A DNA stretch of 8,189 bases from Escherichia coli (GTDB lineage Bacteria; Pseudomonadota; Gammaproteobacteria; Enterobacterales; Enterobacteriaceae), in assembly GCF_003334305.1 (NCBI RefSeq), contig NZ_QOWS01000044.1; one strand, given 5' to 3'. A program made the position numbers and the translations under genes. How positions within the stretch are numbered: the first letter of the stretch is position 1; each line of letters begins with the position of its first letter. Under the pieces are notes generated by a model, which saw nothing but the letters and a program-made list of their open reading frames with translations, did no database searches and had not been told where the DNA came from. Shown one piece after another: positions 148 to 8,015 of this stretch.

Positions 148-390
148 TGAATAAAGCGCACTCAACAATCTGAAACCCGCCGGAACGGTTTATTACGTAC
201 ATCAGGTGAAACTGACCGATAAGCCGCTTTCTTTTGGGTATAGCGTCGTGGACAGTCATTCATCTTTCTGCCCCTCCAAAAGCAAAAACCCGCCGAAGCG
301 GTTTTTTACGTAAACCAGGTGAAACTGACCGATAAGCCGCTTTCTTTTGGGTATAGCGTCGTGGACAGTCATTCATCTTTCCGCTCCTCC

Positions 391-420
391 AAAAGCAAAA
401 ACCCGCCGAAGCGGGTTTTT
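391..420 (-). terminator. Intrinsic terminator of rnpB
   Basis: On the minus strand, just 3' of the mature rnpB end: stem CCCGC / GCGGG with a UUCG tetraloop (plus-strand 402-415), followed by a U-run (plus-strand A-run 391-401). Confidence 0.75.
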
Positions 421-429
421 ACGTAAATC

Positions 430-806
<377 letters not shown>

Positions 807-813
807 GGCGCGC

Positions 814-842
814 AGTATAGAGGGTTTGCGCGCCCTTGTCAC
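814..842 (-). promoter_or_regulatory. rnpB sigma70 promoter (-35 GTGACA at 837-842, 17-bp spacer, -10 TATACT at 814-819, start near 806)
   Basis: On the minus strand: GTGACA, a 17-nt spacer, TATACT, then 7 nt to the M1 RNA 5' end. The -35 hexamer overlaps the garK stop codon (839-841). Confidence 0.6.
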
Positions 843-1984
843 CCCGCGTTGCGCATTCCAATCGCCAGTGTCGCGGCGATATTACGTGAAGCACGGCAGA
901 TATTGTCATAAGCCCCGCGGAATGCTTCGTCCAACGTACCTATGCTGGTCAATACGCTGAAGACCGCATCGATGCCATGCTGATGTACAACGCCAACATC
1001 ATCGGTCAGGCTACCCGCAATGCCAATCACCGGTTTATGGTACTTCTTCGCCACGTTTGCAACGCCAATCGGTACCTTGCCGTGAATACTCTGGCTGTCA
1101 ATACGCCCTTCACCGGTGATCACCAGCGTACAATCGTGAATATGTTCCTCCAGATTCAGCGCCGTAGTGACGATTTCAATACCACTTTTCAGTTCCGCAC
1201 CAAGAAACGCCATCAGCGCCGCACCCATACCGCCCGCAGCTCCTGCGCCGGGGACATCTTTCACATCAACATGCAGCGCTTTTTTAATGACATCGGCATA
1301 GTGAGAGAGGTTATTGTCCAGCTCAACAATCATCGCTTCACTGGCTCCCTTTTGTGGGCCAAAGATGCGCGATGCGCCGTTATCGCCCACCAGCGGATTG
1401 GTGACATCACAAGCGACGCGAATGACGCAATCTTTTAAGCGCGGATCGAGGCCGGAAATATCAATATCATTCAGAGTATTAAGACTACCGCCGCCAAAAC
1501 CAATTTCATTGCCGTTGGCGTCGCATAATTTCGCCCCCAGCGCCTGTACCATGCCTGCGCCGCCATCATTTGTAGCGCTACCGCCAATGCCGATAATAAT
1601 GTTTGTCGCGCCGCTCTCCAGCGCCTGCAGGATTAACTCGCCTGTGCCGCGTGAAGTGGTCACGAGTGGATCGCGTTTTTCCGCAGGTACCAGCTCCAGC
1701 CCACTGGCCGCCGCCATTTCAATAAACGCGGTTTTGCCATCGCCGGAGATCCCCCAACTGGCATTCACTTTCTCGCCCAGCGGCCCTGTAACCCAGGCGT
1801 GACGTTCAGAACCCTGGGTGGCTGCAATCATCGCTTCCACCGTTCCTTCGCCACCGTCGGCAACCGGAATAGAAACGTACTGTGCATCAGGAAAAATTTC
1901 CCGAAATCCTTTTTCTATCGCCTGCGCAACCTCGCTGGCAGATAAACTTTCTTTATAAGAGTCTGGGGCGATTACGATTTTCAT
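839..1984 (-). CDS. garK: Glycerate kinase (glycerate 2-kinase), 381 aa
   Basis: The ORF track gives 839..2065, but the conserved N-terminus MKIVIAPDSYKESLSA begins at the internal ATG (complement of 1982-1984). That gives 381 aa, the expected size. Glycerate kinase family motifs (GGEGT, GxGGSATNDGG) are present. It is last in the gar operon order. Confidence 0.9.
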   Translation of the reverse strand: MKIVIAPDSYKESLSASEVAQAIEKGFREIFPDAQYVSIPVADGGEGTVEAMIAATQGSERHAWVTGPLGEKVNASWGISGDGKTAFIEMAAASGLELVPAEKRDPLVTTSRGTGELILQALESGATNIIIGIGGSATNDGGAGMVQALGAKLCDANGNEIGFGGGSLNTLNDIDISGLDPRLKDCVIRVACDVTNPLVGDNGASRIFGPQKGASEAMIVELDNNLSHYADVIKKALHVDVKDVPGAGAAGGMGAALMAFLGAELKSGIEIVTTALNLEEHIHDCTLVITGEGRIDSQSIHGKVPIGVANVAKKYHKPVIGIAGSLTDDVGVVHQHGIDAVFSVLTSIGTLDEAFRGAYDNICRASRNIAATLAIGMRNAG

Positions 1985-2080: not shown

Positions 2081-2965
2081 TTAACGAGTAACTTCGACTT
2101 TCGCCAGTTTTTCGTAGTAGCACGCCAGGGCGCTATGATCCGCCGTTCCTAAACCATCTGCTCGCAGTGCCTGCATCATCTCCATAACCGCAGCTGTGAG
2201 CGGCAGTTGCGCGCCGACGCCGTGGGAAGTATCCAGCGCATTTGCCAGATCCTTAATATGCAGATCAATACGGAAGCCCGGCTTGAAGTTGCGGTCCATC
2301 ACCATCGGCGCTTTGGCATCCAGCACGGTACTGCCCGCCAGTCCACCGCGAATTGCCTGATACACCAGGTCCGGGTTAACGCCCGCTTTGGTTGCCAGCG
2401 TTAGCGCTTCTGACATCGCGGCAATATTCAGCGCCACAATGACCTGATTTGCCAGTTTGGTGACGTTACCTGCACCGATTTCCCCGGTATGCACCACGGA
2501 ACCCGCCATCGCTTTCATCAAATCATAGTATTTGTCGAAAATAGCCTTGTCGCCGCCCACCATCACTGACAGCGTACCGTCGATGGCTTTCGGTTCACCG
2601 CCGCTCACCGGAGCATCCAGCATATCAATGCCTTTCGCTTTCAGCGCTTCGCTGATTTCACGGCTTGCCAGCGGTGCGATAGAACTCATATCGATCAATA
2701 CCGTACCTGGCTTCGCGCCTTCAATGATGCCATTCTCACCCAGCGCCACCTCTTTCACATGAGGGGAGTTTGGCAGCATGGTTATGATGACGTCGCACTG
2801 TTCAGCGATCGCTTTAGCCGTAGACGCTGTTTCTGCACCTGCAGCAATCACGTCAGCAATAGCTTCTGGGTTACGGTCAGCAACCACCAGCGAGTAACCT
2901 GCTTTCAGAAGGTTTTTACTCATTGGTTTACCCATAATCCCCAGGCCAATAAAACCAACTTTCAT
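2081..2965 (-). CDS. garR: Tartronate semialdehyde reductase (2-hydroxy-3-oxopropionate reductase), 294 aa
   Basis: N-terminus MKVGFIGLGIMGKPMSKNL is a Rossmann NAD-binding motif of the 3-hydroxyisobutyrate dehydrogenase family. The ORF track extends to 2980 (MIDMTMKVGF); I chose the MKVGF start to match the known 294-aa protein. Alternative starts are at 2971 and 2980. Confidence 0.88.
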   Translation of the reverse strand: MKVGFIGLGIMGKPMSKNLLKAGYSLVVADRNPEAIADVIAAGAETASTAKAIAEQCDVIITMLPNSPHVKEVALGENGIIEGAKPGTVLIDMSSIAPLASREISEALKAKGIDMLDAPVSGGEPKAIDGTLSVMVGGDKAIFDKYYDLMKAMAGSVVHTGEIGAGNVTKLANQVIVALNIAAMSEALTLATKAGVNPDLVYQAIRGGLAGSTVLDAKAPMVMDRNFKPGFRIDLHIKDLANALDTSHGVGAQLPLTAAVMEMMQALRADGLGTADHSALACYYEKLAKVEVTR

Positions 2966-3000
2966 AGTCATATCAATCATCTCTCTTGTTGCGGTGGTGG

Positions 3001-3771
3001 TTATTTTTTAAAGGTATCAGCCAGTTTCTGAGTGGCAGAGCGGAAGACGCCAAGATCGCTGCCGACAGCCACAAACGTCGCGCCCCATTCCAGATAACGA
3101 CGCGCATCGGCTTCGACCGGCGCGAGAATACCGCTGGGTTTGCCGTGCGCACTGGCACGGTTAAAAATGTGCTGAATTGCTTTTTGTACATCCGGGTGCG
3201 AGGCATTGCCGAGATGGCCTAATGCCGCAGCCAGATCGCTGGGGCCGACGAAGATACCGTCTACACCTTCGGTAGCGGCAATGGCATCGACGTTATCTAC
3301 GCCCTGCTGACTTTCTATCTGGACCAGAATGGTGATGTTCTTGTTCGACTGAGCGAAATAATCCGCCACGGTGCCAAACATATTGGCGCGGTGAGAAACG
3401 GAGACGCCGCGAATGCCTTCCGGTGGGTAACGGGTTGATGCCACCGCCTGCTCTGCTTCCTCTTTTGTTTCTACAAAAGGAATCAGGAAGTTATAGAAAC
3501 CGATATCCAGAAGACGCTTAATAATTACCGGCTCGTTGGTCGGCACTCGCACTACTGGCGCGCTGGCGCTGCCTTTCAGGGCCATTAACTGCGGAATAAA
3601 CGTGGAGATATCGTTTGGCGCATGTTCGCCATCCAGCACCAGCCAGTCAAACCCAGCCAAACCAAGAACTTCAGTGCTAATCGGGTTAGAGAGTGCTGAC
3701 CAGCAACCAATTTGTACCTGTTTCGCAGCCAGTGCGGCTTTGAATTTATTCGGGAAAACATCGTTATTCAT
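3001..3771 (-). CDS. garL: 5-keto-4-deoxy-D-glucarate (2-dehydro-3-deoxyglucarate) aldolase, 256 aa
   Basis: 256-aa ORF starting [24 protein letters not shown], of the HpcH/HpaI aldolase family. AAGG Shine-Dalgarno about 9 nt upstream. Sits 15 bp downstream of the garP stop. Confidence 0.92.
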
Positions 3772-3786
3772 CGCTTATACCTTTGC

Positions 3787-5121
3787 TTATTTCTGCAATT
3801 CCATACGTTTAATGTCGCCAACTACGAAGAGGTAGCAGACCATCGCCATCAGCGCTGAACATCCCACGAAAACCAGTGCTGCATTGAAGGAGTGCAGTTC
3901 ACTTACCAGGTAGCCAATCACCAGTGGAGTGACAATGGAGGCAACATTGCCAAAGACGTTAAAGACGCCGCCACAGAGGCCAACAATCTCTTTCGGCGCG
4001 GTGTCAGAAATCACCGGCCAGCCCAGAGCACCAAATCCTTTGCCAAAAAAAGCCAGCGCCATCAGCATGACCACCAGCGTGGTGTTGTTGGTGTAGTTAC
4101 ATAAGATGATGGTGGAAGCCAGCAACATTCCCAGCACAATCGGTAGCTTACGTGCCAGGGTCAGGGATAAACCGCGTTTGATCAGATAATCCGAGAAGAC
4201 ACCTCCCAGCACGCCGCCCGCAAAACCACACAGTGCCGGAATCGAGGCGACCAGACCCACTTTCAGAATCGACATGCCTTTTTCCTGCACCAGATAAATC
4301 GGGAACCAGGTGAGGAAGAACCAGGTGATGGTGTTGATAAAATATTGTCCGAAAAATACGCCCAACATCATGCGGTTAGAGAGCAATTGCTTGATGTAAT
4401 GCAGTTTGGGACCGCTTGCTGCCGCGCTGCCCGGCTTTTTGTGGTCCATATCGACCACCGCGCCATTTTCAGAGATAAACTTCAGCTCTTCCGCAGACAT
4501 ACGTGGGTGATCTGTCGGGTTATGAATCAATTTGATCCACAGCGCCGTCAGCACAAAACCAATCACCCCCATAACGGTAAAGACGTGCTCCCAGCCCCAG
4601 GCGAAAGTCAGCCAGCCAAGCAGAGGCGAAAAGAGCGCCAGCGAGAAATATTGCGCCGAGTTAAAGATGGCGGAGGCAGTACCACGTTCTTTCGTCGGGA
4701 ACCAGGCGGCGACAATACGGGCGTTCGCCGGGAATGATGGCGCTTCCGAGAAGCCGAGCATAAAGCGCATAAAGAACATGGAGATCCCTGCCCAGGCCAG
4801 CGGGAACATATCAACAAAGCCTTGCAGGAAAGTGAATAGCGACCAGAAAAAGAGGCTATAGGTATAAACTTTTTTCGAGCCAAACTTATCAAGCAGCCAG
4901 CCGCCGGGGATTTGCATCAGCAAGTAGGCCCAGCCAAAAGCAGAAAAGATGTAACCCATCGAAACCGCACTTAACTGCAACTCTTTTGCCACTTCGGTAC
5001 CAGCAATAGACAGCGTTGCACGATCGGCGTAGTTAACGGCGGTAACAATAAAAATAATCAGTAATATTAAATAGCGGGTATGCACGCCTTTCTTTTTTTC
5101 GTCAACGGTGTCCAGAATCAT
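3787..5121 (-). CDS. garP: Galactarate/glucarate/glycerate transporter, MFS superfamily, 444 aa
   Basis: 444-aa ORF, highly hydrophobic with multiple predicted transmembrane helices typical of an MFS anion:cation symporter. GAGG Shine-Dalgarno about 7 nt upstream of the ATG. First gene of the minus-strand operon. Confidence 0.92.
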   Translation of the reverse strand: MILDTVDEKKKGVHTRYLILLIIFIVTAVNYADRATLSIAGTEVAKELQLSAVSMGYIFSAFGWAYLLMQIPGGWLLDKFGSKKVYTYSLFFWSLFTFLQGFVDMFPLAWAGISMFFMRFMLGFSEAPSFPANARIVAAWFPTKERGTASAIFNSAQYFSLALFSPLLGWLTFAWGWEHVFTVMGVIGFVLTALWIKLIHNPTDHPRMSAEELKFISENGAVVDMDHKKPGSAAASGPKLHYIKQLLSNRMMLGVFFGQYFINTITWFFLTWFPIYLVQEKGMSILKVGLVASIPALCGFAGGVLGGVFSDYLIKRGLSLTLARKLPIVLGMLLASTIILCNYTNNTTLVVMLMALAFFGKGFGALGWPVISDTAPKEIVGLCGGVFNVFGNVASIVTPLVIGYLVSELHSFNAALVFVGCSALMAMVCYLFVVGDIKRMELQK

Positions 5122-7215: not shown

Positions 7216-7551
7216 ATGCCCGCTAATGCTCGCTCTCACGCTGTACTGACCACTGAATCAAAGGTCACGATACGCGGACAAACAACTATCCCCGCGCCAG
7301 TGCGTGAGGCCTTAAAACTGAAGCCAGGCCAGGACAGCATTCATTACGAAATTCTGCCTGGTGGGCAAGTCTTTATGTGCCGACTGGGAGATGAACAGGA
7401 GGATCATACTATGAATGCATTTTTGCGTTTTCTGGATGCAGATATCCAGAACAACCCGCAAAAAACTCGTCCATTCAACATTCAACAAGGAAAGAAACTT
7501 GTCGCTGGCATGGACGTCAACATTGATGATGAGATTGGCGACGACGAATAA
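7216..7551 (+). CDS. prlF: Type II antitoxin PrlF (SohA), AbrB/SpoVT-like DNA-binding fold, 111 aa
   Basis: 111-aa ORF starting MPANARSHAVLTTESKVTIRGQTTIPAPVREALKL (swapped-hairpin AbrB-type N-terminus) with an acidic C-terminal tail DDEIGDDE. Its stop overlaps the start of the downstream toxin gene (TAATG). Confidence 0.9.
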   Translation: MPANARSHAVLTTESKVTIRGQTTIPAPVREALKLKPGQDSIHYEILPGGQVFMCRLGDEQEDHTMNAFLRFLDADIQNNPQKTRPFNIQQGKKLVAGMDVNIDDEIGDDE

Positions 7552-8015
7552 TGGATTTTCCACAAAGGGTTAATGGTTGGGCGCTATATGCTCATCCCTG
7601 TTTTCAGGAAACCTACGACGCTTTAGTTGCCGAAGTCGAGACATTAAAGGGAAAAGATCCTGAAAATTATCAGAGAAAAGCCGCCACAAAGTTATTGGCG
7701 GTAGTCCATAAAGTGATTGAGGAGCATATCACGGTCAATCCATCATCACCGGCATTCCGTCATGGCAAGTCGTTAGGCTCTGGGAAAAATAAAGACTGGT
7801 CACGGGTAAAATTTGGTGCTGGTCGTTATCGTCTCTTCTTTCGTTATAGTGAAAAAGAGAAAGTCATCATTCTGGGATGGATGAACGATGAAAACACTCT
7901 GCGCACCTACGGTAAAAAAACAGATGCCTATACCGTATTCAGCAAAATGTTAAAAAGAGGACATCCTCCTGCCGACTGGGAAAGCCTCACCCAAGAGACA
8001 GAAGAAAACCATTGA
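7551..8015 (+). CDS. yhaV: Type II toxin YhaV, RelE/ParE-superfamily ribonuclease, 154 aa
   Basis: 154-aa ORF starting MDFPQRVNGWALYAHPCFQETYDALV, translationally coupled to prlF by a 1-nt overlap. Matches the E. coli YhaV toxin as I recall it. Confidence 0.9.
   Translation: MDFPQRVNGWALYAHPCFQETYDALVAEVETLKGKDPENYQRKAATKLLAVVHKVIEEHITVNPSSPAFRHGKSLGSGKNKDWSRVKFGAGRYRLFFRYSEKEKVIILGWMNDENTLRTYGKKTDAYTVFSKMLKRGHPPADWESLTQETEENH

What the first reader, a model, noticed from the sequence alone, without database searches (positions are those of the whole stretch)
806..842. garK stop codon sits inside the rnpB -35 hexamer, with only 32 bp between the operon end and the M1 RNA 5' end
Seen directly: the garK TGA (complement of 839-841) lies within the putative rnpB -35 (837-842). 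There is no terminator hairpin between garK and rnpB. Transcripts from the gar operon would therefore read into rnpB and yield 5'-extended RNase P RNA precursors, and translating ribosomes finishing garK would occupy the rnpB promoter. This could couple an essential RNA gene to a catabolic operon; whether read-through actually occurs is inference.
Basis: partly seen in the sequence, partly recalled or inferred. Interest (0 to 1): 0.4.

Follow-up and report, generated by a model that had tools for sequence, protein, structure and literature searches.

The report
garK stop codon inside rnpB promoter
The last codon of the E. coli glycerate kinase gene garK really does sit inside the promoter of the essential RNase P RNA gene, but this is a known, tightly packed gene junction around a fixed promoter, not a new regulatory device.

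Summary
The window is the E. coli chromosome. rnpB (RNase P RNA) lies at 430-806 (-) and garK at 839-1984 (-). The minus strand reads GTGACA (842-837), 17 bp, TATACT (819-814), GCGCGCC, then G+1 (806). The garK TGA (841-839) is inside the -35 hexamer, 32 bp from +1. No intrinsic terminator lies upstream.

[quoted passage not shown] Blocking the gar genes caused no fitness defect, whereas blocking rnpBp or rnpB did. So rnpB expression, at least in LB, does not depend on gar transcription. Ribosomes sit on mRNA, not DNA, so they cannot "occupy" a promoter.

In 121 loci (120 other species records plus the matching E. coli strain) the promoter is nearly invariant: [G/A]TGACA in 120 and a 17-bp spacer in 120. 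This holds whichever gene lies upstream (garK, rsmI, agaR or garR). The unrelated rsmI gene of the Erwiniaceae also ends on the same TGA in 36 of 40 loci. The TGA therefore belongs to the promoter, and upstream reading frames simply end on it. This is an ordinary, known arrangement of low interest.

The parts
430..806 (-). rnpB, the RNase P RNA (M1 RNA, class A). Its 5' end (+1, G) is at 806.
   Evidence: Rfam RF00010 scores 318.6 bits over the full model. RefSeq annotates rnpB at the same coordinates.
837..842 (-). rnpB promoter -35 hexamer, GTGACA. It contains the garK stop codon.
   Evidence: Sequence and promoter scan, 10 of 12 matches. The hexamer is [G/A]TGACA in 120 of 121 loci, whatever gene lies upstream.
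839..841 (-). garK stop codon TGA, bases 2-4 of the -35 hexamer.
   Evidence: Sequence and the garK CDS annotation at 839-1984. The TGA lies in the hexamer in 55 of 60 garK-adjacent species loci.
820..836 (-). 17-bp promoter spacer. The half near the -35 hexamer is G+C-rich and variable; the block AAACCCTC near the -10 hexamer is conserved.
814..819 (-). rnpB promoter -10 hexamer, TATACT.
   Evidence: TATACT occurs in 78 of 121 loci; the rest have TATTAT, TATCAT, TATAAT, TACACT or TAATAT.
807..813 (-). G+C-rich discriminator GCGCGCC between the -10 hexamer and +1. This is the sequence type of stringently controlled stable-RNA promoters.
   Evidence: GCGCGCC, TCGCGCC or CCGCGCC in 96 of 121 loci. 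Stringent control of this promoter is known only from the titles of cited papers.
839..1984 (-). garK, glycerate 2-kinase, the last gene of garPLRK.
   Evidence: RefSeq annotation. NCBIfam NF007668 equivalog, 845 bits against a cut-off of 686.
2081..5121 (-). garR, garL and garP, the upstream genes of the same operon and the source of any read-through transcription.
   Evidence: RefSeq annotation mapped to the window and the ORF list.
392..415 (-). Intrinsic terminator downstream of rnpB: hairpin CCCGCTTCGGCGGG followed by TTTTTGCTTT. This is where both promoter-initiated and read-through transcripts would be expected to end.
   Evidence: My own scan. An equivalent site is found in 92 of 101 species loci.

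Best explanation
Positions 806-842 hold the well-studied sigma-70 promoter of E. coli rnpB: -35 GTGACA, a 17-bp spacer, -10 TATACT, the G+C-rich discriminator GCGCGCC, and a start at the mature 5' G of M1 RNA. The near-consensus -35 hexamer contains the triplet TGA. garK is the last gene of a sugar-acid island that lies directly against this promoter, and it is in the frame that reads that TGA as its stop codon. The promoter is the constrained element. The upstream reading frame simply runs until it meets the promoter's TGA, through a poorly conserved tail of about 6 residues beyond the glycerate kinase domain. Because no terminator separates the genes, some gar operon transcription probably continues into rnpB when the operon is induced. 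This is the annotated garPLRK-rnpB unit. rnpB expression nevertheless comes from its own strong promoter and does not depend on upstream transcription. Shown here: the anatomy, its conservation, the absence of a terminator, and (from the literature) that blocking the gar genes causes no fitness defect. Inferred: that the overlap results from compaction and not from selection for coupling, and that read-through is quantitatively minor.
For: 1. Anatomy.
2. Promoter invariance in 121 loci: GTGACA in 112, ATGACA in 8, a 17-bp spacer in 120.
3. The same promoter is abutted by four different same-strand genes, identified by NCBIfam equivalog hits and BLAST classes: GarK (60 loci, at least 20 enterobacterial genera), RsmI (40 loci; Pantoea, Erwinia, Tatumella, Mixta and others), AgaR (about 9) and GarR (about 5).
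4. Two unrelated genes end on the promoter's TGA: garK in 55 of 60 loci and rsmI in 36 of 40. agaR and garR stop 10-27 nt further upstream, yet the hexamer is unchanged.
5. Similarity between the classes starts only about 3-4 nt upstream of the hexamer, in the block RGGGTGACA.
6. The GarK tail is variable (NAG, SAG, TEG, SQG, TQG, TER and others). It lies beyond the TIGR00045 domain, which ends at residue 375 of 381.
7. No terminator lies upstream: 4 of 118 loci, against 92 of 101 downstream.
8. [quoted passage not shown] Mutational studies of the rnpB promoter exist, including its -35 region and stringent response (citations seen), as does a paper on tandem promoters upstream of rnpB (citation).
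Against: - No transcript data were examined here, so the amount of read-through is unknown. The supplements of the SMRT-Cappable-seq paper that are held contain no entry for rnpB or garK.
- The CRISPRi fitness data were collected without gar induction (LB). They show that rnpB does not depend on upstream transcription, not that induced gar transcription has no effect.
- The repeated lack of a terminator, whichever gene lies upstream, could itself be selected. The compaction explanation does not require that.
- The species compared are related, so the 55 of 60 and 36 of 40 counts represent about two independent origins, not about 90.
Confidence: 0.8

Rival explanations
1. Functional coupling. 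Read-through from whichever gene lies upstream is a selected second route to RNase P RNA, or a brake on it through promoter occlusion. Under this view gar induction measurably raises or lowers M1 RNA, or supplies it when ppGpp shuts down the stringently controlled promoter.
For: - The absence of a terminator is conserved across 118 loci and four different upstream genes.
- All upstream genes lie on the same strand with stops no more than about 80 nt from +1 in most loci.
- The unit garPLRK-rnpB is annotated.
Against: - dCas9 roadblocks in the gar genes give no fitness defect, while targeting rnpBp does.
- The upstream partners have unrelated physiology (sugar-acid catabolism, rRNA methylation, a repressor), which argues against a specific regulatory logic.
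- E. coli has no 5'-to-3' exonuclease (established knowledge). A 5'-extended M1 would therefore need a precise endonucleolytic cut at +1, and none is known.
- rnpB is already among the most abundant non-coding RNAs from its own promoter.
Confidence: 0.1
2. Effective insulation without a canonical terminator. gar transcripts mostly end at or before the junction, so garK-rnpB co-transcripts are rare despite the annotation. Elongating polymerases might collide with polymerase bound at the strong rnpB promoter, or Rho might act once the ribosome leaves at the UGA.
For: - The promoter is strong and near consensus, and rnpB is highly expressed, so promoter occupancy should be high.
- I could not verify what kind of evidence lies behind the RegulonDB unit.
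- Nothing for rnpB or garK was found in the held long-read operon supplements.
Against: - Only 32 nt of untranslated RNA precede the highly structured M1 sequence, which is poor ground for Rho loading (inference).
- Promoter-bound polymerases are usually displaced by elongating ones and do not terminate them (established knowledge of transcriptional interference).
Confidence: 0.1

Closest known systems
[quoted passage not shown]
   Same: It is the same locus. The gene order, the promoter position and an internal promoter inside a longer unit are as described by the CRISPRi study that used RegulonDB annotations. The junction is present in all 5426 complete E. coli genomes.
   Different: Nothing differs structurally. 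The specific remark that the garK TGA lies inside the -35 hexamer was not found stated in the papers I could read.
rsmI-rnpB junction of the Erwiniaceae (Pantoea, Erwinia, Tatumella, Mixta)
   Same: A same-strand upstream gene whose TGA stop lies inside the rnpB -35 hexamer GTGACA, with a 17-bp spacer, a G+C-rich discriminator and no terminator.
   Different: The upstream gene is a housekeeping 16S rRNA methyltransferase, not a catabolic kinase. The -10 hexamer is TATTAT or TATCAT, and the discriminator is often 8 nt long.
Intra-operonic (internal) promoters embedded in the 3' end of an upstream gene, a common feature of compact bacterial operons
   Same: The promoter elements overlap the upstream coding sequence, and the downstream essential gene is expressed independently of upstream transcription.
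   Different: The downstream gene here is a structural RNA whose mature 5' end is the transcription start itself. A read-through product is therefore not equivalent to the promoter-initiated one.
Stringently controlled stable-RNA promoters with a GCGC-type discriminator (rRNA and tRNA promoters)
   Same: A G+C-rich discriminator (GCGCGCC) between the -10 hexamer and +1, a non-consensus first base in the -35 hexamer, and a stable-RNA product. Papers on the stringent response of this promoter are cited.
   Different: ppGpp sensitivity was not tested here. No A+T-rich UP element is visible upstream; that region is garK coding sequence.

Membership tests
Sigma-70 promoter of a stable-RNA gene (stringent type) | A -35 hexamer close to TTGACA and a -10 hexamer close to TATAAT, separated by 16-18 bp | tested here: met
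   GTGACA, 17 bp, TATACT: 10 of 12 matches and the best site in 1-2300. The architecture is conserved in 120 of 121 loci.
Sigma-70 promoter of a stable-RNA gene (stringent type) | A transcription start 5-9 nt downstream of the -10 hexamer that coincides with the 5' end of the RNA | tested here: met
   Seven nt separate TATACT from G806, which is position 1 of the Rfam model and the annotated rnpB 5' end. The start site itself was not measured here.
Sigma-70 promoter of a stable-RNA gene (stringent type) | A G+C-rich discriminator and sensitivity to ppGpp/DksA | tested here: inconclusive
   The discriminator GCGCGCC is present and conserved. The stringent response is known only from the titles of Jung & Lee 1997 and Park et al. 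2002, cited; those papers are not held.
Bacterial RNase P RNA, class A (RF00010) | A score above the curated covariance-model threshold over the full model | tested here: met
   318.6 bits against a gathering score of 100, model positions 1-367 of 367, E = 2e-104.
Rho-independent terminator between garK and rnpB | A G+C-rich hairpin immediately followed by a U-tract | tested here: not met
   No minus-strand site. My own scan, which recovers the rnpB terminator, finds none between 806 and 1207. The 8-bp stem at 834-807 has no U-tract. Only 4 of 118 related loci have any candidate upstream.
garPLRK-rnpB transcription unit | Same-strand, contiguous gene order garP-garL-garR-garK-rnpB | tested here: met
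   RefSeq annotation of the 100% identical record.
garPLRK-rnpB transcription unit | Physical co-transcripts spanning garK and rnpB | not testable with these tools
   The unit is stated in a paper using RegulonDB annotations. No transcript-level data could be retrieved.
Conserved RNA hairpin in the leader or promoter (834-827 with 814-807) | Base pairs maintained by covariation across relatives | tested here: not met
   The mean is 5.95 of 8 pairs in 74 distinct sequences. The 5' arm varies freely against a nearly fixed 3' arm, and there is only one double compensatory change, in E. albertii.

The most novel reading that the evidence does not exclude
The abutment without a terminator may itself be selected. 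Under this reading, in Enterobacteriaceae and Erwiniaceae whichever gene lies upstream reads into rnpB, giving a supply of M1 precursor that is independent of ppGpp. The 5' leader would be removed at +1 by RNase P itself. A leader-M1 RNA presents helix P1 followed by the unpaired 3' tail ACCU. This resembles the acceptor stem plus NCC of pre-tRNA and the hairpin precursors of 4.5S RNA and tmRNA, which RNase P is known to process.
Probability: 0.07. Interest if true: 0.5.

Novelty: already known. Interest (0 to 1): 0.15.

Why it matters
It matters little beyond annotation.

- The locus is a textbook promoter, and the co-transcription unit is already in RegulonDB.
- The comparative result shows that a near-consensus -35 hexamer (TGACA) can act as a built-in stop codon for whatever gene comes to lie upstream.
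- It also shows that the rnpB promoter has stayed fixed while gene islands (gar, aga) were inserted against it.
- If read-through into rnpB proved to be functional, it would raise the question of how a 5'-extended ribozyme RNA is matured in a bacterium that lacks a 5' exonuclease.

Tried and rejected
- Built-in terminator scan: it reported no minus-strand terminators but also missed the canonical rnpB terminator, probably because A:T pairs extend the stem into the T-tract. I did not rely on it alone and wrote my own scanner with a positive control.
- The 8-bp G+C hairpin across the promoter and leader, considered as a possible terminator, attenuator or processing signal: rejected. It has no U-tract, and the comparison across 74 distinct sequences shows no maintained pairing.
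- Literature retrieval:
  - Motamedi et al. 1984 (PMC345347) is not held.
  - A search for 'garPLRK-rnpB' found nothing.
  - The SMRT-Cappable-seq supplements have no rnpB or garK entry.
  - Searches for upstream-promoter or precursor M1 literature returned nothing specific.
- The idea that garK coding forces the non-consensus first base (G) of the -35 hexamer: rejected. GGT would still encode glycine and would give a perfect TTGACA, and the G persists where the position is non-coding, next to agaR or garR.
- The idea that the overlap is specific to gar: rejected, because rsmI shows the same overlap in the Erwiniaceae.

Full report
**What the window is.**
The 8189-bp window is 100% identical to an E. 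coli chromosome, and 5351 of 5426 complete E. coli genomes hold at least 80% of it. RefSeq annotation of the identical record, mapped to window coordinates, gives the following genes:
- rnpB at 430-806 (-)
- garK at 839-1984 (-)
- garR, garL and garP further along the minus strand
- garD on the plus strand
- prlF-yhaV

Rfam independently places bacterial RNase P RNA class A at 430-806 (-). The full model is matched, at 318.6 bits against a gathering score of 100.

**The observation.**
Read on the minus strand, 842..806 is GTGACA (842-837), then a 17-bp spacer, then TATACT (819-814), then GCGCGCC (813-807), then G at 806. The consensus scan scores this as 10 of 12, the best sigma-70-like site in 1-2300. 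The start it implies coincides with position 1 of the RNase P RNA model.

The garK stop TGA occupies 841-839, which is bases 2-4 of the -35 hexamer. Exactly 32 bp (838-807) separate it from +1. Every coordinate in the finding is correct. The junction is present in all 5426 complete E. coli genomes and is at least 99% identical in 5002.

**Is there a terminator?**
- The built-in scan found no minus-strand terminator. It also failed to report the canonical terminator just downstream of rnpB, so I did not rely on it alone.
- My own hairpin-plus-T-tract scan recovers that terminator (CCCGCTTCGGCGGG at 415-402, then TTTTTGCTTT). It finds nothing on the minus strand between 806 and 1207.
- Across related genomes the same scanner finds a terminator-like site downstream of rnpB in 92 of 101 loci. 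It finds one in the 300 nt upstream in only 4 of 118.
- RNA folding does predict an 8-bp G+C stem (834-827 with 814-807) around the -10 region. It has no U-tract.
- In 74 distinct related sequences that stem averages 5.95 of 8 pairs. The 5' arm varies freely, and there is a single double compensatory change. It is a by-product of a G+C-rich spacer facing a GCGC discriminator, not a conserved structure.

**Whose TGA is it?**
I scanned one genome per species for the first 23 nt of M1 RNA and obtained 120 loci from Enterobacteriaceae and Erwiniaceae. Together with the matching E. coli record they make 121 loci.

The promoter is almost invariant: GTGACA in 112, ATGACA in 8, and a 17-bp spacer in 120. 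The -10 hexamer is TATACT in 78, and otherwise TATTAT, TATCAT, TATAAT, TACACT or TAATAT. The discriminator is G+C-rich throughout.

The same-strand gene immediately upstream differs between loci:

| Upstream gene | Loci | Typical genera | Stop codon |
|---|---|---|---|
| garK (glycerate 2-kinase) | 60 | Escherichia, Salmonella, Citrobacter, Enterobacter, Klebsiella, Raoultella, Kluyvera and others | TGA inside the -35 hexamer in 55 of 60 |
| rsmI (16S rRNA C1402 2'-O-methyltransferase) | 40 | Pantoea, Erwinia, Tatumella, Mixta | TGA inside the -35 hexamer in 36 of 40 |
| agaR | about 9 | Cedecea, Pluralibacter and others | 10-27 nt upstream of an unchanged GTGACA |
| garR | about 5 | Lelliottia, some Enterobacter | 10-27 nt upstream of an unchanged GTGACA |

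Two further points bear on the question:
- Similarity between the classes begins only 3-4 nt upstream of the hexamer, in the block RGGGTGACA.
- The last six residues of GarK lie beyond the glycerate kinase domain model and vary in sequence and slightly in length.

The simplest reading is that the promoter is the fixed object. The TGA is part of its near-consensus -35 hexamer, and upstream reading frames that reach it in the right frame end there. Two unrelated genes do this, so the overlap is not a gar-specific device.

The first base of the hexamer never gives the consensus TTGACA. Yet GGT-TGA would still encode glycine, and the G persists where the position is non-coding. So the non-consensus base is a property of the promoter and is not imposed by garK. 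This fits the existence of a paper on -35 mutations that alter the stringent response of this promoter (citation seen; the text is not held).

**Read-through and coupling.**
With no terminator, transcription that starts at the gar promoter should be able to enter rnpB. This is already recorded. [quoted passage not shown] It reports that dCas9 roadblocks in garK, garR, garL or garP cause no fitness defect, whereas targeting rnpBp or rnpB does.

rnpB is among the five most abundant non-coding RNAs in the transcriptomes. The essential expression of rnpB therefore comes from its own promoter. Those CRISPRi data were obtained without gar induction, so they do not exclude an effect of induced gar transcription, whether extra 5'-extended RNA or promoter occlusion.

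The ribosome is on the mRNA, and its footprint at the UGA would reach only to about -20 of the leader RNA. Only an elongating RNA polymerase can interfere with the promoter DNA.

E. coli has no 5'-to-3' exonuclease (established knowledge). A read-through M1 would therefore keep a 5' extension unless an endonuclease cuts exactly at +1, and no such activity is documented in what I could read.

**Older literature.**
[quoted passage not shown] It could not be read. Its title implies that 5'-extended rnpB transcripts from upstream starts were considered long ago.

**Verdict.**
- The feature is the known rnpB promoter lying against garK, and the unit is already in RegulonDB.
- The modest new point is comparative. 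The promoter's TGA serves as the stop codon for two unrelated upstream genes in two bacterial families, and no terminator separates rnpB from its upstream neighbour in nearly all of the 118 loci with enough upstream sequence to test.
- Interest is low.
- The most novel reading not excluded is that read-through is a selected second source of M1 RNA, matured at +1 by RNase P itself. The P1 helix plus the ACCU tail resembles an acceptor stem, and RNase P is known to process 4.5S and tmRNA precursors. I give that about 7%.

Noticed in passing
window 161-499: There are three tandem direct copies of a 113-nt unit (100%, 89% and 64% identity to the reference copy). The third copy overlaps the 3' end of rnpB, so each unit carries a copy of the M1 3' segment plus a terminator-like hairpin. 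From memory, repeats of this kind were described with the original rnpB sequence. Their function was not examined.
   Followed up: partly
window about 95-150; L001 488-1468: A REP-like palindromic element (gtaggcaggataaggcgttcacgccgcatccggca) lies near the left end. It probably explains the median of 23 matching places per genome. In the best-matching strain an IS621 (IS110-family) transposase gene ends about 30 bp outside the window.
   Followed up: no
window 392-415 (-): The scan_promoters_terminators tool did not report the canonical rnpB terminator, whereas a simple custom scan did. The likely cause is that A:T pairs extend the stem into the T-tract. Negative results from that tool should be checked against a positive control.
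   Followed up: yes
window 842 (-); all 121 loci: The first base of the rnpB -35 hexamer is G (112 loci) or A (8 loci) and never gives the consensus TTGACA. A synonymous GGT would allow it, and the G persists in non-coding contexts. This suggests selection against a perfect -35 hexamer, possibly for growth-rate or stringent control.
   Followed up: partly
window 820-827 (-): The half of the promoter spacer nearest the -10 hexamer (AAACCCTC, just upstream of TATACT) is almost invariant across the Enterobacteriaceae. The half nearest the -35 hexamer varies freely. The reason is unknown.
   Followed up: no
window 838-842 (-) and ORF 708-842 (-): The promoter forces the garK stop into the context UGA-C. 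From memory, this is the weakest termination context in E. coli. Stop-codon read-through would continue for 43 more sense codons into the M1 sequence before TAG at 710-708 (read); one search lists the same frame as the 44-aa ORF 708-842 (-). Not tested.
   Followed up: no
window 998-1026 (-) and 1593-1620 (-): Two weaker sigma-70-like sites (9 of 12 matches) lie inside garK on the rnpB strand. They might correspond to the 'tandem promoters' in the title of Motamedi et al. 1984. That paper could not be read, and three sites are close to the chance expectation (1.5 +/- 1.3).
   Followed up: no
L068, L076, L098, L118, L023, L040: In several species the garK reading frame is broken or partly deleted: short ORFs of 53-149 aa, or a garK-like tail behind agaR or garR. 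Examples are Salmonella enterica subsp. diarizonae and some Citrobacter and Enterobacter. The garK-derived tail and the promoter are retained intact.
   Followed up: partly
L006, L045, L057 (about -75 to -50 relative to rnpB +1): In three loci where agaR lies next to rnpB, a weak hairpin spanning the agaR stop codon is followed by TTTCGTTT. These are the only plausible upstream terminator-like sites among the 118 loci.
   Followed up: no
window 7216-8015 (+): The prlF-yhaV type II toxin-antitoxin pair lies between the gar cluster and agaR. In species that lack the gar cluster, agaR lies directly next to the rnpB promoter. This suggests that the gar genes and prlF-yhaV were inserted between agaR and rnpB.
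   Followed up: partly
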